From: an uncultured bacterium
GTDB lineage: Bacteria; Armatimonadota; Abditibacteriia; Abditibacteriales; Abditibacteriaceae
NCBI GenBank assembly: GCA_963843795.1
Contig: CAWJLW010000006.1
Location: forward strand, 3,298,375-3,362,374
DNA: 64,000 nucleotides
Reading direction: 5' to 3'
The translations under genes and the position numbers were made by a program. This document shows, piece by piece, positions 4,897-59,709 of the stretch (position 1 is its first letter; every line of letters starts with the position of its first letter). Under the pieces are notes generated by a model. It saw nothing but the letters and a program-made list of their open reading frames with translations. It searched no databases and was not told the origin of the DNA.

Positions 4897-6405
4897 TCAA
4901 ATCGCGCCACGCGCTTTCAATTTCATATAACGATTAACGGTTGCAATTGTCAACTGGCTGGCATCGACATCTAAAATTCCTACGCCTTGCCGACGCAGAT
5001 TCTCGAAAACCGCAACGCGCTGGCTCAACATCTTTTGCGCCATCGCTTTTTCGTATAAATCGTTCATGTTTTGCGGCAGTTGTCCAGCCAATTCGGCCAC
5101 ATCGCGATTACTGATCGCGACGCACATCGCGCTGTGATGGCGGCGCAAAGTCGCTGAAGCAGTCAAAAGTTCGCGCGAGGCGAACGGGTCGATGACATCG
5201 GTGAAAGTCACGACTAAAGAACGACGAATTTTGCGTGCATCGAGATACGTGTAAGCCGCGCCGTAATCTGGCTCGACGAGTTGCGGTTGCGCGCCGTAAA
5301 GCGCTTCGATGATTTGGCCGGTTTGCAGGCGACCTTTGCGCGGCGGAACCCAAGTTTTCACGCCATCGGCGAACAACAGCAAACCGACGCTATCGCCCAT
5401 CGAAGCCGCGACGTGCGATAGCAAAACTGTGGCGTTAATTGCGCAATCGAGCTTTGATAGCGGAACATCGGGCGAATTGTCAAGCGCGATTTTGGGGTCG
5501 GGTGCAAGTACTTGCAGGGTGCCGAAGTGCGCTTCGGAATCGAGGGAAGTGGGGATTGTGGCTTTCACATGAGCGGCGCGCGCGTGAGCGAGTGCAGTCA
5601 TCATTCGCCCGCAATCCAAAGCAATGATAATGGTTTGGTCGCGTTCGATTTCGTAATTGGTCGAAATCAAACGTCCGCGCCGCGCCGAGGCTTTCCAGTT
5701 GATATTTTTGAATTCATCGCCCGGCGTATAATCGCGCAGACTTTCGTATTCCGTTCCCTGCCCACGGGAACGCAAACGGTGCAAACCCAGTTCGCTGGCG
5801 CGCCCCAAACGCAATTGCAATTCGTAACGCTTGACTTCGCTCACATCGGGATAAACGCGCACGGTTTGCGCGGCGGGCGTTTTAAATTGTCGCCACCACA
5901 AACCCAGCGGCGTTGGGTAGCGCGCGTATAAATCGCCAAATTCCCAGTCGCCGCGCCGCGTCGGTAGAATTTCGTAACTGGCCGAATCTTCGCTGCCCGC
6001 TTTGAGCGACAATCGCACCAATGGCAAACGTGTTGTATCGAGCGCGGTCGAGGCAGCAGAAATAGCGGTTGCAGGCAAATTTCCGCTATCGCGAAGGGGC
6101 CACTCGTGCGGCGCTTCGTCGCGAATCGTGATGGCAACTTCGCGTTGCGGCGCGCGTTCGGCCTGACGGCGGCGCGCATGAATGGTGATGCGATTGGCGG
6201 TTCCCAGATTCAAACGTGCGGAAGTTTCGCGCGTGATTTCCCATTGATCGGGACGCGGAGAAAGAAACCAATCCATCGCTGAAACCACGATAATTACGCC
6301 CAGATAAAGCAGCGCGATGGGAACAAAAAACGGCACCAGAGCGGCGCTGACCCAGAAAATCGCTCCCAACATCACGTAACCGGCCAATCGTAGCGAAGGC
6401 ATCAT
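4897..6405 (-). CDS. DUF58 family membrane protein (MoxR-associated, VWA-like)
   Basis: GQGTEYESLRDYTPGDEFKNINWKASARRG...DCGRMM motif; N-terminal transmembrane helices. Confidence 0.9.
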   Translation of the reverse strand: MMPSLRLAGYVMLGAIFWVSAALVPFFVPIALLYLGVIIVVSAMDWFLSPRPDQWEITRETSARLNLGTANRITIHARRRQAERAPQREVAITIRDEAPHEWPLRDSGNLPATAISAASTALDTTRLPLVRLSLKAGSEDSASYEILPTRRGDWEFGDLYARYPTPLGLWWRQFKTPAAQTVRVYPDVSEVKRYELQLRLGRASELGLHRLRSRGQGTEYESLRDYTPGDEFKNINWKASARRGRLISTNYEIERDQTIIIALDCGRMMTALAHARAAHVKATIPTSLDSEAHFGTLQVLAPDPKIALDNSPDVPLSKLDCAINATVLLSHVAASMGDSVGLLLFADGVKTWVPPRKGRLQTGQIIEALYGAQPQLVEPDYGAAYTYLDARKIRRSLVVTFTDVIDPFASRELLTASATLRRHHSAMCVAISNRDVAELAGQLPQNMNDLYEKAMAQKMLSQRVAVFENLRRQGVGILDVDASQLTIATVNRYMKLKARGAI

Positions 6406-6568
6406 AATTTAAGTTCATCCGTGGGCGCGACCAAACATCTCGCAAGTACTTGCAGCAAGGACTTGCACCCTTATTTTAACGCGCTGCTGTGGGAGGCGAT
6501 AAAGTAAGCAGTGGAGCCTGCGCGCCTTTGGCCGTTCTATAAACGCGATCACAGCTCGATTCAATGCT

Positions 6569-7303
6569 ATGAAATCTTTCTATCCCCTTGTTTTAATCGC
6601 TTTGGCCATCGGCGCATGGCAATTTCTGCCACGTCAGCCGACGGTCGAAATCAATATCGGCGAACCGAAAAAAACTGCTCCAACGAAAAAAATCTTGGCA
6701 GATAAAACGCCTTTATGGGAGCACGCGGCGCAAGCCATCAAAGACCAAACAGGCAACTGGAAGCTACCCGAAATCGCCATGCCGAAAATCGAACTGCCCG
6801 AAATAGTAGTCGAAGAATGGCCCGGCAGCATGGCAGCGAACAAGACCGCCAGAGTCACCTCTGGTGCGCAACTTTCGCATTATGAAACCATGCTTTGCAA
6901 TTTGGCCAACCGCGAACGCAAAGCCAAAGGTTTGAAACCATTGAAAATTTCGCCAGCACTGGCCGATGTCGCGCGCGCGCATTCCAAAGAAATGGCGCAA
7001 AAAGCTTATTTCGATCACCAATCGCCCGATCCCAAACGCCGCACCGTAATGGATCGCTACAAATTGAAATTTAAAGAAACGCCGCGCTTGGTTGCGGAAA
7101 ATATTTACAAATTGGAAGGCCCGTCGTTTTACAAACTGGGCGAAAAAGATTTTCGGCGCGCGCATACGGGTTGGATGAACTCGCCCGGCCATCGCGAAAA
7201 TATTCTACGCGACAGCCCTGCGGGCGGCCCGACCGAAATCGGAGTTGGGATTGTGGTTCGCAACGGTTCGTTCTGGGCCACACAGAACTTCGCGCGCCCA
7301 TGA
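6569..7303 (+). CDS. CAP/SCP domain (YkwD-like) exported protein
   Basis: NRERKAKGLKPL...ARAHSKEMAQKAYFDHQSP...AENI...GWMNSPGHRENIL. Confidence 0.9.
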   Translation: MKSFYPLVLIALAIGAWQFLPRQPTVEINIGEPKKTAPTKKILADKTPLWEHAAQAIKDQTGNWKLPEIAMPKIELPEIVVEEWPGSMAANKTARVTSGAQLSHYETMLCNLANRERKAKGLKPLKISPALADVARAHSKEMAQKAYFDHQSPDPKRRTVMDRYKLKFKETPRLVAENIYKLEGPSFYKLGEKDFRRAHTGWMNSPGHRENILRDSPAGGPTEIGVGIVVRNGSFWATQNFARP

Positions 7304-7352
7304 AGATGGCTCAAATTCTCCTATTAATTTCGTTCCCGAAAACGCGCTTTGC

Positions 7353-7381
7353 TTGACAGCTTGCAAGGCGTGTTTTACAAT
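7353..7381 (+). promoter_or_regulatory. Sigma70-type promoter of the ABC transporter operon
   Basis: TTGACA (7353-7358), 17-bp spacer, TACAAT (7376-7381). Confidence 0.75.
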
Positions 7382-7418
7382 GTGTGCGGCTTACTCTACC
7401 CACGAGGTAGGATTTGAA

Positions 7419-7505
7419 ATGAGACAATTTTTCCCGAAAACTATTCGCCGTTCGATGCGATGCTCAATGCGATGTCAATGCGCGCAAAGGTTGGCGCAGC
7501 GTTAA
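7419..7505 (+). CDS. Putative Cys/Met-rich leader peptide (28 aa)
   Basis: GAGGTAGG Shine-Dalgarno, then MRQFFPKTIRRSMRCSMRCQCAQRLAQR*; lies between the promoter and the transporter. Confidence 0.5.
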   Translation: MRQFFPKTIRRSMRCSMRCQCAQRLAQR

Positions 7506-7612
7506 AGCTTTGTGTGCTTGTTGGCAAGTACTTGCCACGCGTTTTGGGTTGAGTTTGGGAGCTGTCATGATTTCAAAAGTTGTTGCAAGCGCCGTTGGTG
7601 CGAGGTGGATGG

Positions 7613-8404
7613 ATGCAGATTCGCATTGAAGACGCGCGCAAAATTTATAAAAGTCGTTCCGGCCCGGTCGTCGCCCTGGACGGCGTAAATCTTACCATCG
7701 ACGAAGGCGAATTCGTGTGTTTGGTCGGGCCGTCGGGCTGTGGCAAATCGACGCTGTGCAATATGATTGCGGGTTTCGATACGCCGACTGAAGGTCGTTT
7801 GACTTTGAATGGCAAAACCATCAGCGGCCCTTCTATCGAGCGCGCGATGATGTTTCAGGAGCCGGCACTTTTTCCCTGGCTCAGCGCCCAAAGCAACGTC
7901 GAATTCGGCCTCAAAAGTTTAAAAATTCCCGCCGAAGAGCGCGCCGAACGCGCTCGCAAGTACTTGCAACTGGTGCATTTGTCGCAATTCGGTGGCGCGC
8001 AGCCGCACGAGCTTTCGGGTGGAATGCGACAGCGCGTGGCGCTGGCCCGTGCCCTTGCAGTTGAACCCAAAGTGCTTTTGATGGACGAACCGTTCGCCGC
8101 GTTAGATGCGCAGACGCGCGATCACTTGCACGTCGAACTGGAAAACATCTGGCGACAAACGCGCAAAACCATTGTTTTCGTGACGCACAACGTGCGTGAA
8201 GCGGTGACATTGGCAACGCGTATCGTGGTGTTTACAGCGCGTCCGGGCCGCATCAAAGCCGAATTCGATCTCGAAGATTTGGAGTATCCGCGCGGCGGTG
8301 GGCAAACGTTGGTCAATGAAACGGTGGCGCGTGTGCAAAGCGCCCTGCGCGATGAAGTCGCCAAAGTTGAAGCCAAAGAATACGATTCAGGAGGCAGCGT
8401 GTGA
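7613..8404 (+). CDS. NitT/TauT/SsuB-family ABC transporter ATP-binding protein
   Basis: GPSGCGKST Walker A, LSGGMRQR signature, LMDEPFAALD, FVTHN. Confidence 0.93.
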   Translation: MQIRIEDARKIYKSRSGPVVALDGVNLTIDEGEFVCLVGPSGCGKSTLCNMIAGFDTPTEGRLTLNGKTISGPSIERAMMFQEPALFPWLSAQSNVEFGLKSLKIPAEERAERARKYLQLVHLSQFGGAQPHELSGGMRQRVALARALAVEPKVLLMDEPFAALDAQTRDHLHVELENIWRQTRKTIVFVTHNVREAVTLATRIVVFTARPGRIKAEFDLEDLEYPRGGGQTLVNETVARVQSALRDEVAKVEAKEYDSGGSV

Positions 8405-9429
8405 ATCCGGAATCGCCCCGAACTCCTCCCCATTCAGAACGTATTTCGCCATCGGGTGTAGCCGAAGCGACTTCAAGCGGCGTGGCCGCGGCCAATGTAG
8501 CGGCGACCATTTCGCCTGCACGCGACTCGAAATCTCCGGAGCAAGATACCCAGCGCGAAAGGCGTGCGAAGTGGAACGATACTCTCATTCGCATCGCTTT
8601 CGTAGCCTTTTTGATCGCGCTGTGGCACGGCGCGCATTACGTTCTGGTGACGCGTTTGGATGCGTGGTCGGGCGCGCTGTTTCCCTCGCCGGGTCAGGTT
8701 TTGGGCTGGCTGTGGGACGGCTTTGGCTTTTCCTATCTCACGCACAATTACATTCCGGTCCCGGGCGCGCGCGCGCCCCAATCGCTGGGCGAAGCGATTA
8801 TGCAGAAAGATTATCTGCGCGCCATCGGCTCGAGCCTGGGGCGTTTGCTGGTTGGCTATGGCATCGCTGTCACGATTGGTTTTCCGTTGGGCTTGCTGGT
8901 CGCGCGCTTTGCGTGGGCTGAAAAAACTATCGGTTGGCTCAGTTCGAGTTTGCAATCTCTGCCCTCGATTTGTTGGATTCCGCTTGCTTTATTGTGGCTG
9001 GGCCGTTTCGGTGTGTGGCCGATTATTTTTGTCACGGTGATGGGCGCATTGTTCGCGACCGTGATTGCGGTTGCTGATGGCATCGCGAACGTACCACCGC
9101 TTTTGGCGCGTGCAGGACGCACTCTGGGCGCCGAAGGTATGCGCTTGTATTTCGGCGTGCTATTGCCCGCCGCATTGCCCGGCGTGGTGACAGGTTTAAA
9201 AATTGGCTGGTCGTTCGCATGGCGTTCGTTAATGGCGGCAGAATTGATCGTCAATTCGGGCGGACTGGGTTTTTTATTGCAACGCGACCGCGATTATGGT
9301 GATGCCGATGGCGTGCTGGCGACGATCTTAGTGATTATTGTCATCGGATTAGGCGTTCAAGCCTTGATTTTCGCGCCCGTTGAACGACGTTTACAGCGGT
9401 TGTGGGGCTTGAGCGGAGTGAGGAATTGA
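8401..9429 (+). CDS. NitT/TauT/SsuC-family ABC transporter permease
   Basis: Multiple transmembrane helices; AGRTLGA loop; WRSLMAAEL. Confidence 0.9.
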   Translation: MNPESPRTPPHSERISPSGVAEATSSGVAAANVAATISPARDSKSPEQDTQRERRAKWNDTLIRIAFVAFLIALWHGAHYVLVTRLDAWSGALFPSPGQVLGWLWDGFGFSYLTHNYIPVPGARAPQSLGEAIMQKDYLRAIGSSLGRLLVGYGIAVTIGFPLGLLVARFAWAEKTIGWLSSSLQSLPSICWIPLALLWLGRFGVWPIIFVTVMGALFATVIAVADGIANVPPLLARAGRTLGAEGMRLYFGVLLPAALPGVVTGLKIGWSFAWRSLMAAELIVNSGGLGFLLQRDRDYGDADGVLATILVIIVIGLGVQALIFAPVERRLQRLWGLSGVRN

Positions 9430-9436
9430 AGAGAAT

Positions 9437-10438
9437 ATGAAGAATCGCAGACATTTTTTGGGCGCAGTGGGCGCTGTGGCCGTTTTTGCAATCGCCGGTT
9501 GCGGCAGTAGCGGTAGTAACACGAATACGAGCGGCGAAAGCGCCGCATCGAGCGAGGCGCTCAAAAGCGTGACAGTTGGTTATTTGCCCAACATCGTAAT
9601 GCCTCAGCCCCTAGTTGGCTTACAGGACGGTTTATACGAGAAAAACGTGCCGAATGTGAAGTTCAGTGGCAAAGATTATCCGGCTGGGCCATCGGTAGTC
9701 GAAGCGTTGCGTTCGGGTGTCGTCGATATCGCTTACACCGGCCCGTATCCTCCGCTCAAAGGGTTCGCCAAAGATAAGGATATCGTTCTGCTCGCGGCTG
9801 CCGGTTCGGGCGGCACCGAACTGAGCGTAGCAAAAAATTCTTCCGTCAAAAGCGTGAAAGATTTGAAGGGCAAAACCGTCGGCGTCAACCAATTGGGTTC
9901 AACAGTTGATGCGATGGTGCGCCACGTTCTGATTGAAGCTGGTTTACAGCCGGGTAAAGACGTAAAAATTACGCCGGTTCCGCCCGCTGAACAAGGCGAC
10001 GCTTTGGCGCGTGGCACGGTCGCTGCAGTCGCCGCGCCTGCGCCATGGCCGATTGTCACCAACCAGAAAGGTGGCCGCGCGCTGCTCGATTGGAAAGCGA
10101 TTTTGGACGATGGCAAGTACTTGCAGGGCGTCGCCTTCACTACCAAGAAATTTGCCGCAGCGCATCCCGAATTCGTCAAGCAATTCGTCGCTGCACACCG
10201 CAAAATCACCGATGATTTGAACGCCGACCGCGCCAAAGCCGACAAGCAAATCGTGACGGCGTGGCAAAAAGTAACCGGCAAAAAGATGGAGCCAAGCGTT
10301 GCCGATGCCGCTTTCAAAACCATTCAGTTCGTCAACGATTCGAGTTTGGACGAGTGGAATCGCGTGCAAGATATCGCAGTCGAAACCGGAATTATGCGCA
10401 AAAAAGTCGCGCTAGATGGTTATTTATACGGACAATAA
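9437..10438 (+). CDS. SsuA-like (aliphatic sulfonate-type) ABC substrate-binding lipoprotein
   Basis: Lipobox IAGC; AGPSVVEALRSGVVDIAYTGP; SVKDLKGKTVG. Confidence 0.88.
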   Translation: MKNRRHFLGAVGAVAVFAIAGCGSSGSNTNTSGESAASSEALKSVTVGYLPNIVMPQPLVGLQDGLYEKNVPNVKFSGKDYPAGPSVVEALRSGVVDIAYTGPYPPLKGFAKDKDIVLLAAAGSGGTELSVAKNSSVKSVKDLKGKTVGVNQLGSTVDAMVRHVLIEAGLQPGKDVKITPVPPAEQGDALARGTVAAVAAPAPWPIVTNQKGGRALLDWKAILDDGKYLQGVAFTTKKFAAAHPEFVKQFVAAHRKITDDLNADRAKADKQIVTAWQKVTGKKMEPSVADAAFKTIQFVNDSSLDEWNRVQDIAVETGIMRKKVALDGYLYGQ

Positions 10439-10452
10439 TTAAAGACACCAAC

Positions 10453-11475
10453 ATGAACACTCGTCGCAAGTACTTGCAGAGCATTCTTGCTCTCACACTT
10501 TCCGCTGCAATTAGCGGCTGCGCTTCCAATTCGTCCGCGCCGGAAAGCAATTCCGCCGCTGTTGGCGACAGTTCCAGCAGCACTCCGCAAACGCTGACTA
10601 TCGGCTACAATCCAACAATTGTGCAGCCGCAAGCGCTGGTTGGCATTCAAGGTGGCGATTACAAAACTGCTCTGCCTGAGGTCACAATTGAAGGCCGAGA
10701 CTTCGATGCTGCGCCCGCTGTTTTGGAGCAACTGCGCGCGGGCACGATTCAAATCGGTTGCGGCGGCCCGTTTCCCGCGATGCGCGCGTTCGTCGGTGAT
10801 GGCGACATCGTTTTATTGTGCAACGCAGCCAACGGGGGCACACAATTATCGGTAAAAAGCGATTCGCCCATCAAAACTGTCGCCGATTTAAAGGGCAAAA
10901 TTATCGGCGTCAATCAATTGGGTTCAACTGTTGAAGCGATGGTGCGCTTTCAACTGGTGGAAGCGAAATTAAACCCGAGCAGCGATGTCAAGTTCGTCGA
11001 AATCAAGCCCGCCGAACAAGCCGCCGCCTTGAAAAGCGGCGATGTGCAGGCCGTCGCTGCGCCCGCGCCGTGGCCTTCGCAAGTGCAAGCCGATGGAACC
11101 GCGCGCGCCTTGGTCGATGGCAACGCGATGTATGAAGGCGGTAAGTATTCGAGCGCCGCGTTTTTCACCACGAAAAAATTCGCCGATGCCAATCCGCAGC
11201 TCATCGAAAAATTTATCGCCGCGACCGAAAAAATCACCGATGATTTGAACGGCGACCGCGCCAAAGCCGATGCCCGCGTGCTACAAAACTGGGCAATCGT
11301 GACCAAGAAAACTCTTAAACCCGAAATTGCCAAAGCCGCGTTTTCAACGATTACCTACGACACGAAGTTGGATCAAGCCGCACTGCAAAAGTTCGCCGAC
11401 ATCAATTTCAAACTCGGTGTGCTGCGCCAGAAACCTGATTTGAACGGTTTCATCTGGCAAGCCAAAGCGCAGTAA
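10453..11475 (+). CDS. Second SsuA-like substrate-binding lipoprotein (tandem paralog)
   Basis: Start MNTRRKYLQ; lipobox ISGC; shares GVNQLGSTV, AAPAPWP and TTKKFA with the upstream paralog. Confidence 0.88.
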   Translation: MNTRRKYLQSILALTLSAAISGCASNSSAPESNSAAVGDSSSSTPQTLTIGYNPTIVQPQALVGIQGGDYKTALPEVTIEGRDFDAAPAVLEQLRAGTIQIGCGGPFPAMRAFVGDGDIVLLCNAANGGTQLSVKSDSPIKTVADLKGKIIGVNQLGSTVEAMVRFQLVEAKLNPSSDVKFVEIKPAEQAAALKSGDVQAVAAPAPWPSQVQADGTARALVDGNAMYEGGKYSSAAFFTTKKFADANPQLIEKFIAATEKITDDLNGDRAKADARVLQNWAIVTKKTLKPEIAKAAFSTITYDTKLDQAALQKFADINFKLGVLRQKPDLNGFIWQAKAQ

Positions 11476-11494
11476 TTTCGCAATTTGAAAAGTC

Positions 11495-11526
11495 AAAGCC
11501 CGCTGCAAGTACTTGCAGCGGGCTTT
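11495..11526 (+). terminator. Palindrome-tipped intrinsic terminator
   Basis: aaagcccgc-TGCAAGTACTTGCA-gcgggcttt followed by further T's. Confidence 0.75.
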
Positions 11527-11611
11527 TTGTGCTTTGTGTGTTTCGCAAGTACTTGCGCGGGAACGGCATGCCCAAATTTTCGTGGTTGAAACAGCCAATT
11601 CCCATTTCTTA

Positions 11612-13639
11612 ATGACTATGAAAACTATTTCCCATTCTCGGCGCCGCATTCTCCTTAAAAGTGCGACGCTGGGCATCGCTGCCTTTTCGACTTTGCTTTC
11701 TCTGGAGAAAACTCTCATGCCCGCGTGGAGCGCCGAAGTGACGCAAACCATCAACGCGCCCGATTTTCCTGCCGGTTTCGCGTGGCACAATGTCGAAAAA
11801 CCTCTCAGCCTGCGCGCCTTGCGCGGTAAAGTTGTGCTGCTCGATTTCTGGACTTACGGTTGCATCAACTGCATTCACATTCTGCCAGACTTAAAAAAGT
11901 TAGAGCGCAAATATCCCAATAATCTGGTCGTTATCGGCGTACATTCGGCCAAATTCGCCAATGAAAGCGATAGCGCCAATATTCGCAACGCCTTGCTGCG
12001 CTACAACATTCAGCACCCGGTCGTGGTTGACCAGAATATGCGCCTGTGGAACGAATATACCGTGAATGCGTGGCCAAGTTTTGTTCTCATTGATCCAGCG
12101 GGGAAAGTCGTGGGTACTACCGCAGGCGAAGGTCAATACGACTTGCTGGATAAAACTATCGCGACCACGATTGATACGTTTCGCAAGCGTGGTGAACTGA
12201 ACGAAAAGCCGCTGCAACTGGCATTGGAAGCCGCCAAAGTTGCGCCGACGCCCCTGTGGTATCCCGGTAAAGTTCTGGCGCGCGAAGGTTACGTTTTCAT
12301 CGCCGATTCCAACCACAATCGTATCGTGATCGCGCGGCCCGATGGCCGGGTGGAAGCGGTCGCGGGCAGCGGCGTGATGGGAAATTCGGACGGCTCGTTC
12401 GCTGATGCGACGTTTTCTAATCCGCAAGGTTTGGCGCTCAAAAAAGCGACTAATGGCGATTTAACCTTATTTGTCGCCGACACCAACAATCACACAATTC
12501 GTGCGCTAGATTTGAAAAAAGGCACAGTTTCGACAATTGCGGGAACAGGTGAACAAGCGAGCTTTGGTGCGAAGGGTGGAAACGGAACCCAAGCGGCGCT
12601 GTCTTCACCGTGGGATTTGCAGTTGATTGGTGACACGCTTTATATTGCGATGGCCGGTCCACACCAGATTTGGGATTTGGATTTGAAAACTCGTGAGGTT
12701 GAAGTTTATGCGGGTTCGGGGCGCGAGGCGCGTATGGATGGGCCGCTGAAAAGCGCGGCGTTCGCGCAACCTTCGGGATTGGCGAGTGATGGCAAAAAAT
12801 TATGGATTGCCGACAGCGAAATTTCGGCGATCCGTCAGGTCGATTTGCCGAATATGGGCGGTGAAGTACGCACTTTGGCCGGAGGCGATTTGTTCGAATT
12901 TGGCGACCGCGATGGGCGCGGTGATAGCGTGCGTTTGCAGCATCCGCTGGGCGTCGCGTGGCAAAATGGCACACTGTATTTTGCCGACACCTACAACAAT
13001 AAGATTAAAACGCTCGATCCGAAAACCGGACAGGTGAAATCGTTTTTGGGTGGCGGCCGCGGCGATAAAGTCGATTCGGTAGCCCAATTTTATGAGCCGG
13101 GCGGCTTGTCGATTGATGACAACAAGTTGTATATCGCCGATACCAACAACAACAAAATCAAAATTGTCGATTTGGGGAATAAGAATACACGCGAATTAAT
13201 CCTCAAAGATTTGCCGCCGGTGCGCGCTGCCGAGCCGCAGCGTCCGGTACGGCCCGTTGATGAAGATGCCAACACGATCACGTTGCAAAAAGTGATTTTG
13301 AAGCCTAACAGCGCGGGTGAAGTTGTGTTCGATGTGCAGTTGCCGCCGCAGCATCACTTGAATGCAGAATCGCCGCAGCGCGTGCAGGCGCGCGTGGAAG
13401 GCACGGGTGCTAAGTTGTCGAGCGCGCTGGTTTCAGGCACAGATGTCAAGTTGCCGTTGCGATTGCCATTACAGGTGGGGGCGACTGGTGAAGGCAGCGT
13501 AGTCTTGTCGGCGTCGATTTATTATTGCACCGACGCAGCGGGCCTATGCAAATTCAAAACGCTGCGCTTTCGCGCGCCGTTTGAAGTGAGTGTGGATGGG
13601 GCCGACAATCTAAAAATTGGGGCGAAAATCGAGCAGTAA
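11612..13639 (+). CDS. Thioredoxin-like + NHL-repeat protein (NHLRC2/SOQ1-like), possibly Tat-exported
   Basis: LDFWTYGCINCIH; GVHSAKF; repeated IADSNHNRI/FADTYNNKI NHL blades; SRRRILL in the N-terminus. Confidence 0.9.
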   Translation: MTMKTISHSRRRILLKSATLGIAAFSTLLSLEKTLMPAWSAEVTQTINAPDFPAGFAWHNVEKPLSLRALRGKVVLLDFWTYGCINCIHILPDLKKLERKYPNNLVVIGVHSAKFANESDSANIRNALLRYNIQHPVVVDQNMRLWNEYTVNAWPSFVLIDPAGKVVGTTAGEGQYDLLDKTIATTIDTFRKRGELNEKPLQLALEAAKVAPTPLWYPGKVLAREGYVFIADSNHNRIVIARPDGRVEAVAGSGVMGNSDGSFADATFSNPQGLALKKATNGDLTLFVADTNNHTIRALDLKKGTVSTIAGTGEQASFGAKGGNGTQAALSSPWDLQLIGDTLYIAMAGPHQIWDLDLKTREVEVYAGSGREARMDGPLKSAAFAQPSGLASDGKKLWIADSEISAIRQVDLPNMGGEVRTLAGGDLFEFGDRDGRGDSVRLQHPLGVAWQNGTLYFADTYNNKIKTLDPKTGQVKSFLGGGRGDKVDSVAQFYEPGGLSIDDNKLYIADTNNNKIKIVDLGNKNTRELILKDLPPVRAAEPQRPVRPVDEDANTITLQKVILKPNSAGEVVFDVQLPPQHHLNAESPQRVQARVEGTGAKLSSALVSGTDVKLPLRLPLQVGATGEGSVVLSASIYYCTDAAGLCKFKTLRFRAPFEVSVDGADNLKIGAKIEQ

Positions 13640-13725: not shown

Positions 13726-13771
13726 TAGCGACTGAGAATGTAAAGTCTTAACCAAGACTTTGTGAAGAATT

Positions 13772-51382: not shown

Positions 51383-51558
51383 GATATATTTTTGACACTT
51401 AACAATTTACTTGTTCAATTCCGCGCAAAGAATCACAGAGATTTCGTAGAGAGCCGGAAGAAAAGAGAGAAAGCTCAATCTGCAAGTACTTGCAGATTGA
51501 GTTTTCGAAATCTCCAAGTTTTCTGCGAAATCTTTGTGTCTTGGCGCGAAGTTGAAAA

Positions 51559-51798
51559 TTACGAATTTTCGGATTTGTTATCGATATACGAAACGGCTTC
51601 GCCCACGGTGGTGATTTTTTCGGCGTCTTCGTCGGGGATTTCGATTTCGAATTCTTCTTCAAAGCGCATCACCAGTTCAACGACATCCAGCGAATCGGCC
51701 CCTAAATCCTCTACGAAACGCGCCTGCGGCGTCACGATACTTGAATCCACGCTGAGTTCGTCAGCCACAATTTCCTTCACTTTATCGACTACTGCCAT
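51559..51798 (-). CDS. acpP: Acyl carrier protein
   Basis: [14 protein letters not shown]. Confidence 0.97.
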
Positions 51799-51851
51799 GT
51801 GTTTCCTCCACTTCCTTGAAAGTTTTTTTAATTCAATGCGACGTTATCAAA

Positions 51852-52589: not shown

Positions 52590-52639
52590 AATTTCCTCTG
52601 CAAGTACTTGCACCATTGCTTGCACCAAGTCCTGGCGCT

Positions 52640-53530
52640 TTATTCCCAGCTTTCGGCGAACTGCGTTTGCACGCTTTTGTCGATGCGCCCGACCAAACCG
52701 CACAGCACTTTGCCTGGCCCTAATTCGATGAACTGCTCGGCGCCATCAGCGATCATCTGCTGAACGCTCTGACTCCACAAAACCGCGCCTGTCATCTGCG
52801 CGCTGAGAGCTTTTTTCAATTCTGATGCGTCGGTTGTGGAGCGCGCTGTCGTGTTACAATAAACCGGAATGCGCGCGTCTTGAAACGGTGCGGCTTCAAT
52901 AAGCGTAGCCATGGTTTCGCCCGCGCTTTGCATCAGGGGCGAGTGAAAGGCGCCGCTGACCGGCAATCGAATCGCCATTTTCGCGCCCTGCACCTTGGCT
53001 TCGCTCATCGCGCGCTCGACTGCAGCCTCTTCCCCACTGACTACGATTTGTCCAGGCGAATTGAAATTTGCGCCCACAACTACGCCCGCTTGACCCGCGC
53101 TTTCGAGGACTTGTTCCAGCGCGTCGTCTTTCAAACCAATCAGCGCGGCCATCGTGCCAGCGGGCGCGTTGTCCATCAATTGAGCGCGCTGCTGCACTAA
53201 ACGCAACGCGTCTTCAAATTCCAGCACATTAGCTGCGACCAGAGCGCTGTATTCGCCCAAAGAATGTCCGGCTGTCATCTGGGCTTCTAAATCGTGTTCG
53301 CGCGCTAAATCAAGCGCGATAACGCCCACAGTGAGCAAAGCGGGCTGCGCGTGCAGCGTTTGCGTCAAGGTTTCAACTGGCCCTTCAAAGCACAATTTCG
53401 CCAGATCGTAGCCCAAAACCTGCGACGCCTGATCAAAGCGCCGCCGCGCCGCGACGTGTGTGCGCTGCCACGCCTGTCCCATGCCGACTTTTTGACTTCC
53501 CTGTCCCGGAAACACCCACGCATTTTTCAT
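52640..53530 (-). CDS. fabD: Malonyl-CoA:ACP transacylase
   Basis: FPGQGSQ, GHSLGEY, AFHS. Confidence 0.96.
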   Translation of the reverse strand: MKNAWVFPGQGSQKVGMGQAWQRTHVAARRRFDQASQVLGYDLAKLCFEGPVETLTQTLHAQPALLTVGVIALDLAREHDLEAQMTAGHSLGEYSALVAANVLEFEDALRLVQQRAQLMDNAPAGTMAALIGLKDDALEQVLESAGQAGVVVGANFNSPGQIVVSGEEAAVERAMSEAKVQGAKMAIRLPVSGAFHSPLMQSAGETMATLIEAAPFQDARIPVYCNTTARSTTDASELKKALSAQMTGAVLWSQSVQQMIADGAEQFIELGPGKVLCGLVGRIDKSVQTQFAESWE

Positions 53531-53581
53531 AATTTCTGGACGATTACACTTTGCAAGTACTTGCAACTCATTATGAGAATT

Positions 53582-54163
53582 TTAAGATTTGGTCGCAAAA
53601 ACTGCGTAATGATACGGCCCGACTTCGCGCGTTTCCTGCACCGTGAAACCGGCTTCCTGCACCCAATCGCGCACGGTTTCGCTTTTCAAGCGTCGCGCTT
53701 GGCTCGGCCCCGGCAAATCAGGATCGCCACCGGCTGCGCCCGGATGCCATTCGATAACAATCAAACGCCCATTATTTTTCAAAACTCGTCGCGTTTCAGC
53801 CAAATGGCGCAGCGGTTCTTCGCATTCATGCAAAACGTTGGCATGGAACACAACATCGACTTCGGCATCGTCCAGCTCAAACGAATTTTCGCCACACGGC
53901 AGGGTCAGAATGCGCTCCCAGTTTTCGCAGCGCGCCCGCAAAATTTGCAGCATCGCAGGCTGCATATCCAAAGCGTAAACCATGCCACGCGGACGACAAA
54001 CACGCTCGATTTCAAAAGTGAACCAGCCACTGCCGCAGCCAATTTCGGCCACGCGTTCGCCCGCTTTAATTTCAACAGCTTTGACGATTTCAGCAGGATT
54101 GTTCCAACTCAAGCGGTCGGCACTTTCCAAAATCGGCGCTTTTTCGGGATCAAATTTCGTCAT
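53582..54163 (-). CDS. Class I SAM-dependent methyltransferase
   Basis: VAEIGCGSG, YALD, LHE, LKNNGRL. Confidence 0.85.
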   Translation of the reverse strand: MTKFDPEKAPILESADRLSWNNPAEIVKAVEIKAGERVAEIGCGSGWFTFEIERVCRPRGMVYALDMQPAMLQILRARCENWERILTLPCGENSFELDDAEVDVVFHANVLHECEEPLRHLAETRRVLKNNGRLIVIEWHPGAAGGDPDLPGPSQARRLKSETVRDWVQEAGFTVQETREVGPYHYAVFATKS

Positions 54164-54198
54164 AATTGGGTGCAGGTACTTGCAACACACTCTAACAT

Positions 54199-55255
54199 TT
54201 AAGACCATTTCAAAACCGCAGATGCCCACGTTAGCCCGGCACCGAAGCCAACGGTAACAATTGTGTCGCCGCTTTGGATGCGACCCTGATCGCGCGCTTC
54301 ACATAACGCAATCGGTACGCTGGCCGCCGAAGTATTGCCGTATTTTTCGACATTGACGAACACTTTGTCGGAAGAAAGTTTCAAGCGTTTGGCTGCCGCG
54401 TCAATAATGCGCACATTGGCTTGATGAGGCACAAACAGATCAACTTCATTGGTGGCGATACCGCACTTTTGCAAGGCGCGTTCGGCGCTTTCGCCCATTA
54501 CATTGACTGCAAAACGATAAACCTCGCGTCCGTTCTGATAAATTGCGCGCGGGCTGGGGCAACGTACTTGCAGCTTCATTTTTGCCATCGGGAATGCGCA
54601 GCGGAGCAGGTTCGCCATCAATACTGAGCTTCAGCAGAGGGCCGCCGCTGCCATCGGAACCCAGATCGAAACCTAAAACGCCCGTGCCGTCTTCAACTTT
54701 CGAAACCACCACAGCGCCTGCGCCATCGCCGAACAAAACGCACGAACTGCGGTCGTTCCAATCCAAAACGCGCGACATCACTTCAGCACCAACCACCAGA
54801 ATATTTTCACACGCGCCCGAACCGACAAACTGCGCTGCCGTAACCAGTGCATACACGAAGCCAGAACAGGCCGCGCCCATATCGAAGGCCGCACCCGCGA
54901 CGCCAAGTCGATGCTGCAACAGCGAAGCCGAAGACGGAAATTGATAATCGGGCGTGCAAGTCGCGACGATTACCATTTGAATGTCGGACGCGTTTAATTT
55001 AGCGTCTTCAAGTGCGCGACGCGCGGCAATTTCGGCAATATCGACTGTGGTTTGTTCCGGGGAAACGATGCGGCGCGCGCCGATGCCGGTGCGCGAGCGA
55101 ATCCATTCGTCGTTGGTATCGAGAAAGCGCGCTAGATCGTCGTTAGTGACGATGCGCTCCGGCACATAAAAACCCAGACCTGTAACGCCCGCTGAACGCA
55201 GCGTGCGTGGCAAAGTCTCGGCAACCGAAGGCGCAAGGTGCGAAAAATTGGTCAT
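54199..55255 (-). CDS. fabH: 3-oxoacyl-ACP synthase III, with a +1 frameshift at about 54563 inside a motif copy
   Basis: AACSGF and FGDGAGA in the first [16 protein letters not shown] and GFGAGL in the second. Removing one base joins them as ...[16 protein letters not shown]. Confidence 0.93.
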
Positions 55256-55412
55256 AAATCAGAAATTCAAACCGGCACAAAAATGCGCGGCTTTTCGAGC
55301 CGCGCGTCCATATTTCATCGCGCTATTTGCGCACGACAAGTGCTTGCGAAAGCCTTAAGTACTTGCGAAAGCCTTGTCACTGAGCCGCACCACGATTTGT
55401 GACGCCACAATT

Positions 55413-56549
55413 TCACAGCGCAACATCAGGATTATCGACAACAGTTTCCTCGGCGGACGCTTGCAGCGACGCCGCAACTTCAGCCGCACTCGATTCCCCC
55501 TCAGGAGTTTGCGTTTGCGCAGCCTTAATTTGCATCATCGCACGCCGAATCGAACCCGTGACATCTTTGCTCGCAGTTTGGCGCGCGATGCGCAGGGCCG
55601 AATAAATCGACTTGGCATCGCTGCTGCCGTGACTGATAACACAAACGCCATTTACGCCCAGCAAAACCGCGCCGCCGTACTCGGTGTAATCGAACTCTCT
55701 CCGCATCTGCACCAGAGCCGGTTTGAGCAACAGCGCACCAATTTTCGCGCGCAGATTACTGAGCATGGCGGTTTTGAGAGAAGCAGCGAACATCTTAGCG
55801 AAGCCTTCGGTCGTTTTCAAGACAATATTGCCGACATAACCGTCGCAAACCACCACATCGACCGTGCCATACGCAATGTCGCGGCCTTCGACGTTTCCGT
55901 AATAACTATAAAATCCGGCTTTGGTTTGTTCGCGCAGCAAAGGATAGGTGTGCTTAATCAGGTCGTTGCCTTTGCCTTCTTCTTCGCCAATCGATAGCAA
56001 ACCAACTGTTGGTAACTGTGTGTCGCTGAGCGTGCTTTGCGTGCCCGGAATCACGCCCGCAATCGCGCGCGCATAAACCGAACCCATAATGGCAAATTCA
56101 GCTAAGTTGCGTGGGCGACAGTCGGCGTTGGCTCCGGCGTCCATCAAAACTAATGGATTTTTCTGGGTTGGGAAAACGCTGGCGATACCAGGTCGGTCGA
56201 TGCCTTCGATGGGACGCAGGCCGAAAATCGCGAACGCCGAAGCCGCGCCGGTGTTGCCCGCCGATAAAACCGCATCGGCTTTGCCTTCGGCGTGCAGGCG
56301 CGTGGCAACCGCGACCGAAGAATCTTTCTTTTTGCGCAAAGCGACCGAAGGCGCTTCATCCATCGCGACAATTTGACTGGCGTGATGAATGCTCACATTC
56401 GGCGGCAAAGTGGGCAGCAAACGCTGCAAAACCGTCTCGTCGCCGACCAAGATGGCGTGAAAATCGAAATCGCGGGCCGCGCGCACCGCACCTTCGACAA
56501 TGGCTTCGGGCGCGTTATCGCCGCCCATCGCGTCAATTGCTATTCGCAT
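55413..56549 (-). CDS. plsX: Phosphate acyltransferase
   Basis: IDAMGGDNAP, SAGNTGA, CDGYVGN, HGSS. Confidence 0.95.
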   Translation of the reverse strand: MRIAIDAMGGDNAPEAIVEGAVRAARDFDFHAILVGDETVLQRLLPTLPPNVSIHHASQIVAMDEAPSVALRKKKDSSVAVATRLHAEGKADAVLSAGNTGAASAFAIFGLRPIEGIDRPGIASVFPTQKNPLVLMDAGANADCRPRNLAEFAIMGSVYARAIAGVIPGTQSTLSDTQLPTVGLLSIGEEEGKGNDLIKHTYPLLREQTKAGFYSYYGNVEGRDIAYGTVDVVVCDGYVGNIVLKTTEGFAKMFAASLKTAMLSNLRAKIGALLLKPALVQMRREFDYTEYGGAVLLGVNGVCVISHGSSDAKSIYSALRIARQTASKDVTGSIRRAMMQIKAAQTQTPEGESSAAEVAASLQASAEETVVDNPDVAL

Positions 56550-56677
56550 CGGCTACTCGATTTAGATAAATCCCACACAAAAACTGGTGAGGCAGACGCC
56601 AAAAAGTACTTGCGAAGGTTTCGCAAGTACTTGCAGGGCGTTTTCACCGTTTCAAAGGCACCTTGAGGAGGCACCGT

Positions 56678-56884
56678 TTACGAGGCGTCGGGACGCGGCG
56701 TGTGCTTGACGCGCGGTGCCAATACCTGGCGACCATTGTAATAACCACAGGCGCCACAGGCGCGATGCGGCACATTTGGCGCGTCGCAATGCGGACAGGT
56801 CGTGAGCGTAATTTTGGCGGCGCGCCACTGGTGGCGCCGCGTGCGCACTCGAGAGTGCGATTTCCGACGTTTGGGTAAAGCCAT
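56678..56884 (-). CDS. rpmF: 50S ribosomal protein L32
   Basis: MALPKRRKS...CPHC...PHRACGACGYY. Confidence 0.96.
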   Translation of the reverse strand: MALPKRRKSHSRVRTRRHQWRAAKITLTTCPHCDAPNVPHRACGACGYYNGRQVLAPRVKHTPRPDAS

Positions 56885-56949
56885 CTTATTTTCTTCCTTA
56901 AAACGTAAACTTAATTTTCAGTTCGCTAAATTTCAGCATTCGCTAATTC

Positions 56950-57501
56950 TCAGCGCTCGTTATTTTTCTGTGCCCATTGCTGCAAATCTGCCCAACGCGC
57001 ATCACCTTCATCGGCTTCAGCTTTGCGATCCTCGATGCCGGGGCAATCCTGTGAACACAAAGGTTGAATCGGCCAATTTAAAACTGCCGATTGGCGCAGC
57101 AACTCCAGAACATCGACAGAATGCGCATCAAAAATCGCCGCGGTTTCATCGTCGATCTCGTCTTCTTCATCTTCGATTTCATCGCTTGCGTGTCCGCTTT
57201 TAGGGCGTCCGGTGGCGACCACCGAATTGGTTTGCACTTGAAAGAACGCCAAGGGCGCGTCAGCTTCAAGTTCCAACTCGACTGGCTGCTCGTAATCGCG
57301 CAGACAGCGCGCGCACTGCATTTTTACGCTGCTTTGAGCCTGACCCGTGACCACGATATTGCGGCGCGCATTGGCGGCGCGCACGCGCCCCGTAATCGGT
57401 TGAACGAATTCGACATCGTCCAGCACGACCGGCTCTAAATCAATGACGCGCTCGACTGATGTGCCTGGCGCGCGCAAAACATCCAGTAAATCTAAGTACA
57501 T
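56950..57501 (-). CDS. yceD: YceD/DUF177 protein
   Basis: CARCL, LCSQDCPG, DARWADL; conserved position upstream of rpmF. Confidence 0.9.
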   Translation of the reverse strand: MYLDLLDVLRAPGTSVERVIDLEPVVLDDVEFVQPITGRVRAANARRNIVVTGQAQSSVKMQCARCLRDYEQPVELELEADAPLAFFQVQTNSVVATGRPKSGHASDEIEDEEDEIDDETAAIFDAHSVDVLELLRQSAVLNWPIQPLCSQDCPGIEDRKAEADEGDARWADLQQWAQKNNER

Positions 57502-57575
57502 TGTCATCACCGCCAAAATGACGGCCAAGTGAACGTCGCGCTGCGAAAAAGTTCCGCCACGAAACGCGATAAGGC

Positions 57576-57604
57576 ATTTTAAGGAGAGTTCGCCTTTTTG
57601 TCAA
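57576..57604 (-). promoter_or_regulatory. Sigma70 promoter of the yceD-rpmF-plsX-fab operon
   Basis: TTGACA-17bp-TAAAAT on the minus strand. Confidence 0.75.
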
Positions 57605-57670
57605 GGCCGCCACACTGTGCAGCAGGTACTTGCACAAGCTATTGCGCCCGTATCCGCAACATTAAAAACA

Positions 57671-57700
57671 AAAGCGGCTCAATTTAAATTGAGCCGCTTT
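57671..57700. terminator. Perfect 30-bp palindrome terminator
   Basis: aaagcggctcaatttaaattgagccgcttt downstream of the 57729 gene. Confidence 0.65.
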
Positions 57701-57728
57701 CATCTGCTGCAAGTTACTTGCAGCGAAT

Positions 57729-58292
57729 TTATTTCACTCGAATCGAACCGCTTTTGGCCCTCGATTTTGAATCCGACTTTTTTAAGCCATTATAGCCGTA
57801 ATCGGGATACTGATCGTAGCCACCGGCATAAACATCGCCGTTGCGATTGGAAGGATAACGATTATCGGGATAACGGTTGTAATCCGGATAATTGTTATCG
57901 GGATAGCCGTAATTACCCGCGCGATAGCCACCATTATCGGGATAGCGATTGTAATCTTCAGGATAAGTGTTGCGGTTATCGCTGCGTCGATTGCGATAAC
58001 GGTCGTTATTATTTGCATCGCGGTCGGCGTCGCGGCCTTTTTTGTAAGCGTAATATGCGCCGGCGCCAGCGATGATGGCAGGAACATTTTTCCCTTTCAC
58101 GCCATAATAGGCACCCAGAACACCCAAAGCTGCGGCACCGGCTTTATAAGCATCAGCTTTATCAATGGCGTGCGCGCTATTCGCGCCACCAATTGGGAAC
58201 AGCGAAGCGGTCAAAGCCAGAGCGCCCGCGATAAAAACGAAACGCGGCGAACGAGAAATCGAGGGAGAAGTTTGGAAATTGCGGTTTTTCAT
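57729..58292 (-). CDS. Exported glycine-zipper-like protein with N/R/Y/P/D low-complexity repeats
   Basis: Signal ending AHA; AGAAALGVLGAYYG; repeated (N)RYPD/NYPD. Confidence 0.7.
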   Translation of the reverse strand: MKNRNFQTSPSISRSPRFVFIAGALALTASLFPIGGANSAHAIDKADAYKAGAAALGVLGAYYGVKGKNVPAIIAGAGAYYAYKKGRDADRDANNNDRYRNRRSDNRNTYPEDYNRYPDNGGYRAGNYGYPDNNYPDYNRYPDNRYPSNRNGDVYAGGYDQYPDYGYNGLKKSDSKSRAKSGSIRVK

Positions 58293-58399
58293 GGAAAAGC
58301 TCCTGTTGAACTTGGTTATTGGCTTGGTCAACAGCGGCGCAGACGCGCGATTTTGGGGGCAAGTTCAAAACAAGTTGGCAGTTTCTCGCAAAATTTCCA

Positions 58400-58930
58400 T
58401 TAATTTTTTCCGCTTTCGCCGCTTAGATCAACGCCATCCATCAACTTCATGAATTTGTCTAATTCTTCGGGCGCGAGTTCGGTCGATGGTTCTTCAGCTT
58501 CATCAATTTCATCAATTGCTTCTTCGATTTGAATACCGGTTTTTTCGGCCACTTGAGCAGCGACCAGAATGCGACATTGCGCGCGCAAGGCCAGTGCAAT
58601 TGCATCCGAGGGGCGCGCGTCGATTTCCTGTAACTGCGCATCGCCGGGCAATTGTAAATGCAAGCTGGCGTAATAAACCTGATCGGAAAAATCGTTGACC
58701 GTGACTTTGACCAGTCGAATGCCGAGTTCACGAAAAATATTGCTCATTAAATCGTGCGTCATGGGACGCGGCGATTGCTTTTTGTCCAGCTCCATTTGAA
58801 TCGAAATCGCTTCGGGCTGCCCGATCCAAATCGGCACAAACGTGGTGCGCTCTTCATCGCGCAATAATACCAGCGTCTGGCTTTGCGGGTCGATACCAAT
58901 TCCCTCGACCACCATTTCAATCATCGACAT
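58400..58930 (-). CDS. Bifunctional nuclease family (DUF151)
   Basis: PIWIGQPEA, RPMTHDL, DARPSDAIALA. Confidence 0.92.
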   Translation of the reverse strand: MSMIEMVVEGIGIDPQSQTLVLLRDEERTTFVPIWIGQPEAISIQMELDKKQSPRPMTHDLMSNIFRELGIRLVKVTVNDFSDQVYYASLHLQLPGDAQLQEIDARPSDAIALALRAQCRILVAAQVAEKTGIQIEEAIDEIDEAEEPSTELAPEELDKFMKLMDGVDLSGESGKN

Positions 58931-59034
58931 AATTCCACCTTTAACTGCGATTCCTTTTCACAAAATCCGAGGAACAGCAACTTTTCTTAATTCTAACTGC
59001 GCAAGTGCGCTGCAGAGTACTTGCAGGACAAATT

Positions 59035-59709
59035 TCAACCATCAAGCACGGCAGTTCGCGCCCAAATCAACGCCTCATCAAAATCACGTTCTTCCAGCAG
59101 AGAACGGCACCAAGCCGCTGCAAGTACTTGCAAACCATGCGGCGCGCCAACGAAAGTTTTATACGCCGCAGATAAGGCTGCGTTTTCTAACAGTTCGCCA
59201 TCGAGCCAGAATTTTTTGTGGCGCCACATGAGACGATGTTTGGCGTCACCTCGCTGCCACTGAAACTTCAAGGTTTCGTCACAAAAACCATGTTCGAGGC
59301 GTGCGCTGCGGATCGCTTCTTTTTGGCCTGCGCACAAGTTGACGCGATAAGGTTGCTCGCGCTCACTTAAATTTTCGAATTGCAGCGCCGGAATTTTAAT
59401 TTTTTCTGAATTTTCCTGAAAATCATTTTCCACAGTGCGTTGGGCGAACCGTGCATTGGGATCGTCGCCGAAAGTGGTTTCCAAACGCGCTGCCAAACCC
59501 CAGCGCCACAACGCGCGCGCCGCGACTGCCGCGCCACCAATTTCACGTTTTTCATGCACAATTTGAGCAGTGGACGCGGAAACTGATGTCTCAAAAACTG
59601 GCTTTGAGTCGAGTTGGAGCCAGTATTCAACCCAAGTCGCCCCACTTACGCAGAGCGCCTGAAAATCGGATTCGAACGTGGTATTAAGCGATGCGTCGGG
59701 AACAATCAT
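59035..59709 (-). CDS. Hypothetical protein, degenerate PfkB-kinase-like N-terminus
   Basis: IGGAAVAARALWRWG...FGDD resembles PfkB signature 1; no DTxGAGD motif. Confidence 0.5.
   Translation of the reverse strand: MIVPDASLNTTFESDFQALCVSGATWVEYWLQLDSKPVFETSVSASTAQIVHEKREIGGAAVAARALWRWGLAARLETTFGDDPNARFAQRTVENDFQENSEKIKIPALQFENLSEREQPYRVNLCAGQKEAIRSARLEHGFCDETLKFQWQRGDAKHRLMWRHKKFWLDGELLENAALSAAYKTFVGAPHGLQVLAAAWCRSLLEERDFDEALIWARTAVLDG

What the first reader, a model, noticed from the sequence alone, without database searches (positions are those of the whole stretch)
5503..59132. The palindrome is written into protein-coding genes in all three frames
Seen: exact copies inside CDSs. They encode (L)QVLA in DUF58 5504, aroE 17993, the lipoate ligase 20653, lpdA 22105, the sugar ABC ATPase 35249, GH78 37789, GH106 42120 and 42294, and 59120. 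They encode KYLQ in the ABC ATPase 7956 and the binding proteins 10113 and 10466, and ASTC in the rnc tail 49335 and fabH. In-CDS copies lack the long hairpin arms, so the core alone is what is kept. REP elements are mostly extragenic, whereas HIP1 and DUS bias the proteome in this way.
Basis: seen in the sequence. Interest (0 to 1): 0.8.

Follow-up and report, generated by a model that had tools for sequence, protein, structure and literature searches.

The report
Conserved palindromic DNA tag with dialects
This uncultured bacterium has one 12-letter mirror-image DNA word written every 1.7 kilobases through its genes and spacers, keeps it even where the protein code would allow change, and flanks it with DNA shaped for bending, so some protein probably reads it, perhaps to recognise the cell's own kind of DNA.

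Summary
GCAAGTACTTGC occurs 2,567 times in 4.3 Mb, where under one copy is expected. Of these, 796 are in genes, in all three frames (509 QVL, 157 KYL, 130 ASTC), and QVL, STC and KYL rank 1st, 2nd and 5th among enriched tripeptides. Corrections: 68% of copies are intergenic, fabH has none, and more than the core is kept.

New here:
- Coding copies mostly replace residues rather than insert them.
- They stay in register, synonymous bases included, in two species at about 65% protein identity.
- They fill gaps between intergenic copies.
- They carry 10.3-10.5 bp phased AT/GC flanks, also at fourfold-degenerate sites.

Relatives (Abditibacteriaceae, inferred) use other AGTACT-centred dialects, partly at homologous sites, and one sister clade iterates an unrelated non-palindromic word. 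The scan noted these dialects before on another genome (e1-5297255).

Best reading: a selected, protein-read DNA tag, most likely an uptake-type self signal.

The parts
5504..5515 (-). GCAAGTACTTGC in the DUF58 gene (4897-6405), LQVLA
7956..7967 (+). copy in ABC ATPase, RKYLQ; the ortholog of one same-dialect species has RQYLQ with 11 of 12 bases matching
10113..10124 (+). copy in NMT1-like binding protein, GKYLQ; exact in register in one same-dialect species
10466..10477 (+). copy at the N-terminus of a second NMT1-like binding protein, RKYLQ
17993..18004 (+). copy in aroE, AQVLA
20653..20664 (-). copy in lipoate ligase, LQVLA
22105..22116 (-). copy in lpdA, VQVLA; the G001 ortholog has its own dialect CAAAGTACTTTG aligned here (TKVLC)
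35249..35260 (-). copy in sugar ABC ATPase, SQVLA
37789..37800 (+). copy in GH78 rhamnosidase, EQVLA
42120..42131 (-). copy in GH106, LQVLA
42294..42305 (-). second copy in GH106, LQVLA
49335..49346 (-). copy in the rnc tail, ASTC
52600..52611 (-). copy at residue 5 of the called gene 51852-52625 (fabG by position), VQVLA; start codon uncertain
59120..59131 (-). copy in ORF 59035-59559 (no Pfam match, weak gene score), LQVLA
4845..4880 (.). intergenic copy between convergent genes, extended by 12-bp arms with T/A tails on both sides (bidirectional-terminator-like)
40208..40241 (.). intergenic copy between convergent genes, 11-bp arms
62979..63022 (.). intergenic copy with 16-bp arms upstream of dprA
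2587..63006 (.). span of all 45 exact copies in the window (14 coding, 31 intergenic)
63072..64000 (+). dprA (runs past the window end); context for the uptake hypothesis, not part of the motif

Best explanation
The word is a binding site for a lineage-specific protein that bends or wraps about 70-90 bp of DNA around a dyad. What is favoured is about one good site per 1-3 kb. The most likely role is a self-DNA signal in natural transformation (uptake or the recombination that follows), as for USS/DUS and as proposed for HIP1. Intergenic copies are often co-opted as the apex of terminator-like hairpins. Shown: abundance, proteome imprint, substitution mode, conservation, spacing, phased flanks, dialects. 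Inferred: a protein reader, DNA bending, transformation as the function, terminator activity.
For: Conservation: G000 coding sites match 11-12 of 12 bases in register in 20 of 48 and 22 of 35 ungapped sites of two metagenomic species. Those species have 64-65% protein identity and 45-48% fourfold-site identity, and control 12-mers are identical in 1.7-1.9% of cases. GTA is kept in 36 of 65 motif codons vs 1.6% of 671 outside; CTT 36 of 66 vs 8%; CAA 38 of 63 vs 8%. Mode of origin: 89 of 132 site-ortholog pairs have no length change, and sites lie at variable residues (31% vs 62% identity), as reported for uptake sequences (PMC2817400, abstract and passages). Spacing: coding copies are at relative density 0.49 within 200 nt of an intergenic copy and 1.93 at 1.6-3.2 kb (p 7e-22); 230 gaps over 3 kb vs a minimum of 278 in 200 randomisations. 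Phased flanks: period 10.25 at fourfold sites (power 26, null maximum 8.4 in 200 runs, 617 sites) and 10.5 in intergenic copies; amplitude 0.062 vs 0.002-0.021 for seven control anchors. H. influenzae USS has AT tracts whose predicted bend tracks uptake (PMC7811141, passages). The two 26-kb motif-free stretches are an IS-rich island and an island with a transposase and type I R-M genes. Competence-type genes are present: ComEC, ComEA-type HhH, DprA, secretins. Dialects occur across the family. A sister clade iterates a non-palindromic 8-mer equally on both strands, and one of its three genomes has 551 inverted pairs in one orientation vs 26 in the other, which is DUS-like anatomy.
Against: Known USS/DUS are not palindromic (PMC2817400, introduction read). 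A perfect dyad with symmetric phased flanks suits a cytoplasmic dimer at least as well as a pilin. Competence genes do not track the motif: ComEC matched in 27 of 27 family genomes, with or without a motif. No reader was identified among 41 prepilin-like proteins found by a regular expression. 22 of 132 site-ortholog pairs show G000 longer by 3 or more residues, vs 165 of 5,792 controls (p 9e-11), so a minority may be insertions. G006's 24-bp palindrome (830 exact 22-mers) is hard to build stepwise. The two same-dialect species are related to each other (about 82% nucleotide identity), and their loci were picked by a motif match, so they are not independent. Conservation cannot separate selection from ongoing biased conversion.
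Confidence: 0.48

Rival explanations
1. Chromosome-architecture or supercoiling site: a dimeric nucleoid protein, or a factor that recruits gyrase, wraps DNA at these dyads about every 1.6 kb.
For: Perfect dyad with symmetric 10.5-bp phasing. Even spacing. Densest between convergent genes (4.4 per kb vs 1.7 between divergent genes). The E. coli gyrase motif is symmetric with 10.75-bp GC phasing and is enriched downstream of transcribed units and in BIME-2 (PMC6379681, passages). HIP1 conservation and periodicity were read as a chromosomal role (PMC5861425, passages).
Against: The gyrase motif is 130 bp and degenerate; here the core is strict and phasing fades by about 40 bp. Most family genomes have no such word. 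Density is flat across the GC-skew turning point, unlike SlmA, Noc or MatP sites (their distributions recalled). HU is single-copy in all 5 genomes tested, with or without the motif.
Confidence: 0.27
2. Methylation-linked drive (Elhai-type): a solitary methyltransferase marks the central GTAC, and repair or conversion near marked sites creates and maintains the palindrome.
For: G000's single N6_N4_Mtase match is a solitary 256-aa beta-class enzyme, with orthologs in 21 of 27 family genomes including all 7 with a GTAC-containing word. GTAC is near expectation in the sampled DNA of three genomes lacking it (32/38, 46/50, 48/51) and below half of expectation in all 14 motif-free genomes that carry it (one copy broken). 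HIPs co-occur with matching methyltransferases (PMC4390886, abstract and passages).
Against: Specificity is untested; the closest solved relative is M.RsrI (its GAATTC site recalled). Three other genomes without the gene are also GTAC-poor (0/20, 2/27, 11/30), and the three neutral genomes form one clade. The enzyme is nearly invariant across dialects, so it cannot set the flanks. It does not explain phasing, spacing or the non-palindromic word. No C5 or Dam-type methylase was found in G000. It may still act as a modifier of the signal.
Confidence: 0.1
3. Miniature mobile element (REP/RAYT or RPE-like) that inserts in frame into genes.
For: Excess of net insertions at sites (22 of 132). One Y1 transposase gene. 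G006's longer 24-bp form.
Against: 5,033 of 5,080 distinct 20-nt flanks occur once; no target-duplication excess in 11 of 12 settings (one at 2-fold); only one cluster of three copies; the Y1 gene is flanked by a different repeat of about 12 copies. Two thirds of pairs have no length change. Sites are old and conserved.
Confidence: 0.08
4. RNA-level signal: a standard terminator or processing hairpin whose coding copies are by-products.
For: 282 of 448 convergent spacers hold a copy, and 145 of 297 such copies have T tails on both sides.
Against: Coding copies have no arm pairing yet are conserved. In co-directional spacers T tails are as common antisense as sense (319 vs 332 of 1,201). Helical phasing is a double-stranded DNA feature.
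Confidence: 0.05

Closest known systems
DNA uptake sequences of Neisseria (DUS) and Pasteurellaceae (USS), PMC2817400, PMC7811141, PMC12616744
   Same: Density (0.6 vs 0.8-0.9 per kb), about one third in genes, frame bias, roughly doubled tripeptides, location at variable residues, even spacing, lack in recently acquired DNA, terminator-like use, dialects among relatives, AT-rich flanks one helical turn apart
   Different: Perfect palindrome with symmetric flanks and three AT peaks per side; no uptake assay; no receptor found; unrelated phylum
HIP1 (GCGATCGC) and alternative HIPs of cyanobacteria, PMC4390886, PMC5861425, PMC13756078
   Same: Genome-wide palindrome, all reading frames, conserved at synonymous sites, variant forms in relatives, a solitary methyltransferase that may recognise the central 4 bases
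   Different: 12 bp with an AGTACT core; 14-fold denser between genes; methyltransferase link untested and no C5 enzyme found; helically phased flanks, which the passages I read do not mention for HIP1
REP/BIME with RAYT; Rickettsia palindromic elements (recalled)
   Same: Palindromic, frequent just downstream of genes
   Different: No shared flanks, no clusters, mostly substitution, 31% in genes, no transposase flanked by this word
E. coli gyrase binding motif, PMC6379681
   Same: Symmetric, about 10.5-bp AT/GC phasing, enrichment downstream of genes
   Different: 130 bp and degenerate; no strict 12-bp core or lineage dialects

Membership tests
DNA uptake sequence (DUS/USS) | Hundreds to thousands of copies, more evenly spread than random | tested here: met
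   2,567 copies; 230 gaps over 3 kb vs a minimum of 323 under a uniform null
DNA uptake sequence (DUS/USS) | Under-represented in genes, frame-biased, enriches the encoded tripeptides | tested here: met
DNA uptake sequence (DUS/USS) | Arises by substitution, not insertion | tested here: inconclusive
   89 of 132 pairs with no length change, but 22 of 132 longer by 3 or more residues
DNA uptake sequence (DUS/USS) | Non-palindromic core, paired as inverted repeats | tested here: not met
   Perfect palindrome; the feature is met only by the unrelated word of G016
DNA uptake sequence (DUS/USS) | Competence machinery present | tested here: met
   also present in motif-free relatives
DNA uptake sequence (DUS/USS) | Sequence-specific uptake through a pilin receptor | not testable with these tools
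   no assay; receptor not identified
HIP1-type highly iterated palindrome | Genome-wide palindrome, hundreds per Mb, in all frames and between genes | tested here: met
HIP1-type highly iterated palindrome | Sites conserved between genomes beyond codon background | tested here: met
HIP1-type highly iterated palindrome | Sequence GCGATCGC or a derivative, in cyanobacteria | tested here: not met
HIP1-type highly iterated palindrome | Methyltransferase specific for an internal sequence | tested here: inconclusive
   candidate co-occurs; specificity unknown
REP/RAYT or MITE | Copies share 20-40 bp, cluster, and flank their transposase | tested here: not met
REP/RAYT or MITE | Target-site duplication or clean insertion | tested here: not met
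SlmA/Noc/MatP/ParB chromosome sites | Tens of sites with ori/ter bias (recalled) | tested here: not met
   30-83 copies per full 100-kb bin along C6, no gap at the skew turning point

The most novel reading that the evidence does not exclude
Abditibacteriaceae run a third, independent self-DNA recognition system. Its reader wraps about 80 bp around a palindromic dyad and changes specificity between lineages, rewriting the flanks of existing sites in place (LQVLA to LRVLE or LKVLS). In one clade it switched to a non-palindromic word. This would link HIP-type palindromes and uptake sequences as one phenomenon.
Probability: 0.3. Interest if true: 0.88.

Novelty: new variant of a known kind. Interest (0 to 1): 0.66.

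Why it matters
The function of highly iterated palindromes is a long-open question, and sequence-specific uptake is documented in only two families (PMC2817400). Here one family offers at least five GTAC-containing dialects, an unrelated word and motif-free lineages. That makes reader-motif coevolution and cross-dialect transformation directly testable. The word also measurably rewrites the proteome: 642 of 3,522 called genes carry it.

Tried and rejected
- Non-palindromic reading of G006's word: withdrawn. 470 of 748 half-sites have a perfect partner 2 nt away, so it is a 24-bp palindrome.
- Alpha-helix periodicity as the source of the phasing: rejected. It persists at fourfold sites and between genes and is absent in 528 peptide-matched controls.
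- Genome-wide A-tract periodicity: rejected by control anchors.
- Convergent use of permissive VL codons as the source of cross-dialect sharing: rejected for G001 (5 of 8 vs 4 of 124, p 2e-5), weak for G009 (2 of 3 vs 16 of 213, p 0.02).
- Methyltransferase specificity by homology: no informative hit (search listing only).
- PabI-family GTAC restriction enzyme: 0 of 27, but the controls did not ring either, so uninformative.
- Phages carrying the word: 48 of 49 viral loci hold one copy and one holds two.
- AGTACT iteration elsewhere in the phylum: not found in 137 sampled genomes outside the family (at most about 225 per Mb vs 750-1,230).
- Literature: no paper holds the exact words; searches listed nothing on this family's repeats. 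The library lacks most subscription papers, and no supplements were read.
- Motif-free relatives were screened for other words on only 3-29 kb each, so rarer words could be missed.
- The coding share, polarity and flank phasing of CAGCCACG remain unmeasured.
- No structure, complex or read-mapping job was run.
Full report
Observation. The word is GCAAGTACTTGC. All 13 listed positions carry it exactly and lie in called genes in the stated frames. The window has 45 copies, 14 coding and 31 intergenic. The claimed ASTC in fabH is not there. The genome has 2,567 copies in 4.30 Mb against 0.3-0.7 expected, and only 506 single-mismatch variants. Full 100-kb bins of the main contig hold 30-83 copies. 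The nearest named relatives of lpdA and of the methyltransferase are Abditibacteriaceae, so the family is inferred.

Proteome imprint. With my own gene caller, 796 copies are coding, 1,755 intergenic, 12 on gene edges and 4 at contig ends: 0.21 vs 2.98 per kb. Frames are 509 QVL, 157 KYL and 130 ASTC, and 642 of 3,522 genes carry a copy. QVL, STC and KYL rank 1, 2 and 5 among tripeptides. Motif codons account for 567 of 950, 135 of 171 and 205 of 326 of them, and the remainders equal background. Density falls from 0.26-0.31 to 0.12 per kb in genes with the most typical codon use; none of 47 tRNA genes contains a copy. The two 26-kb stretches without a copy are an IS-rich island and an island with a transposase and type I R-M genes (29 of their genes of 300 nt or more were scanned).

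How sites arise. I aligned G000 proteins to partial DNA of relatives (about 0.8 Mb of G006, 0.4 Mb of G009, 0.24 Mb of G001, 3-29 kb of others; HSPs of at least 45% identity and 120 aa). Of 132 site-ortholog pairs (110 sites), 89 had no net length change, 22 were longer in G000 by 3 or more residues and 4 shorter. Residue identity at sites was 31% against 62% in 5,792 controls. So most sites are substitutions at tolerant positions, with a real minority excess of insertions. Flanks are unique, clusters are absent and target duplications are not evident. The one Y1 transposase has a different repeat beside it.

Conservation. A metagenome scan found contigs of two other species with the same core. 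They average 64-65% protein identity and 45-48% fourfold-site identity to G000. Of G000 coding sites aligned without gaps, 20 of 48 and 22 of 35 match 11-12 of 12 bases (6 and 8 exact), against 1.7-1.9% identical control 12-mers. The rare codon GTA is kept in 36 of 65 motif positions against 1.6% elsewhere. ASTC-frame copies were not exactly kept in any of 7 cases. Conversely, 6 of 29 and 8 of 24 of their coding copies are exact in G000. Between the two species themselves, 6 of 11 sites are exactly shared against 19% of controls. In these species the outermost base pair is relaxed, so the strict core is CAAGTACTTG. The loci were chosen by a motif match and the two species are related, so the counts are not independent.

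Spacing. Coding copies avoid intergenic copies: relative density is 0.49 within 200 nt and 1.93 at 1.6-3.2 kb (p 7e-22; p 0.016 against positions in the same gene). Gaps over 3 kb number 230 against at least 278 in 200 randomisations. A second site nearby appears to add little (inference).

Flanks. Coding copies lack paired arms but keep an extended consensus. They show AT peaks 9-10, 19-21 and 30-31 nt from the edge on both sides. The period is 10.25 at fourfold sites and 10.5 in intergenic copies. It holds in each frame and, more weakly, in 130 single-mismatch sites, and is absent or at least three-fold weaker and out of phase for seven control anchors. Similar peaks are visible in G009 and G001, and weakly in the two metagenomic species (no significance test). 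This indicates DNA bent or wrapped around a dyad-centred protein (inference). Intergenic copies are densest between convergent genes (282 of 448 spacers), and many extend into hairpins with T tails.

Dialects. The exact 12-mer occurs 0-3 times in each of 26 other family genomes. AGTACT is iterated 2,813-4,733 times in 5 of them: CAAAGTACTTTG in G001, TCGAGTACTCGA in G009, G015 and G019, and YGAGTACTCR in G012. G006 has AGTACGGTCGA-WW-TCGACCGTACT. An earlier scan note (e1-5297255) pointed me to dialects; I verified them here. Dialects partly share positions: in-register GTAC at 7 of 19 G000 sites in G001 against 2 of 894 controls, and 2 of 28 against 2 of 1,061 in G009. The excess survives a control for permissive VL codons in G001 and is weak in G009. 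On a three-gene tree of 21 genomes, motif-bearing lineages are interleaved with motif-free ones (some nodes weak). G007, G016 and G018 almost lack GTAC and instead iterate non-palindromic CAGCCACG 2,676-3,503 times, against 133-529 in the other 24 genomes. G016 has 551 inverted pairs in one orientation against 26 in the other; G007 and G018 have 17-19 in each. None of 137 sampled genomes outside the family iterates AGTACT.

Candidate readers. ComEC matched in 27 of 27 genomes; ComEA-type and DprA matches in 4 of 5 and secretins in 5 of 5 tested. They are present but do not discriminate. G000's only N6_N4_Mtase match is solitary and has orthologs in 21 of 27 genomes, including all 7 with GTAC words. 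Its presence loosely tracks GTAC avoidance, but its specificity is unknown and it is too invariant to explain dialects. No C5 or Dam-type methylase was found (G000 is 92% complete).

Comparison and verdict. It works like an uptake sequence or HIP1 but is a member of neither: it fails non-palindromy for DUS/USS and sequence and taxon for HIP1. Papers seen: PMC2817400 (abstract, introduction, Table 1, passages); PMC4390886, PMC5861425, PMC7811141 and PMC6379681 (passages); PMC13756078 (abstract, one section); PMC12616744 (abstract). Searches for the exact words found nothing, and family-level searches listed nothing relevant; the library is incomplete. The scan has logged similar iterated palindromes in several other phyla, so the class is not rare. 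The added value here is conservation, in-place dialect change, gap-filling and helical phasing. I put uptake-type self recognition at 0.48 and a chromosome-architecture site at 0.27. New variant of a known kind; interest 0.66.

Noticed in passing
G007, G016, G018 (L160, L161, L166): An unrelated non-palindromic word CAGCCACG occurs 2,676-3,503 times, equally on both strands; G016 has 551 inverted pairs with an extended consensus. DUS-like or REP-like; deserves its own study.
   Followed up: partly
G006 (L087-L146): 24-bp palindrome AGTACGGTCGA-WW-TCGACCGTACT, 830 exact 22-mers, some inside genes; single copies in G012 and G005.
   Followed up: partly
genera g5 and most of g2 (L151, L152, L158, L161, L163, L165, L166): GTAC almost absent; AGTACT 1-33 per genome in 13 genomes. 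Cause unknown.
   Followed up: partly
L182:1483-2253 (G000:C6:2517368-2518135): Solitary beta-class DNA methyltransferase, 56-75% identical across 20 other family genomes, with no consistent neighbours; closest solved relative M.RsrI.
   Followed up: partly
window 10453-10480: The motif supplies RRKYL at the N-terminus of a binding protein, resembling a twin-arginine signal (motif recalled; start codon uncertain).
   Followed up: no
window 54199-55255: The FabH-like ORF is only 269 aa with an overlapping 140-aa ORF downstream; possible frameshift or assembly indel.
   Followed up: no
L227:1378-1800: Short Y1 (RAYT-like) transposase ORF beside a repeat of about 12 copies, next to restriction-modification-like gene pieces.
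   Followed up: partly
G000:C6 56-82 kb and 518-543 kb (L488-L491): IS-rich island with parB, and a low-GC island with type I R-M genes; both lack the word.
   Followed up: yes
whole genome G000: Most 6-bp palindromes are depleted, CGGCCG, GTCGAC and GGGCCC to below 0.2 of expectation.
   Followed up: no
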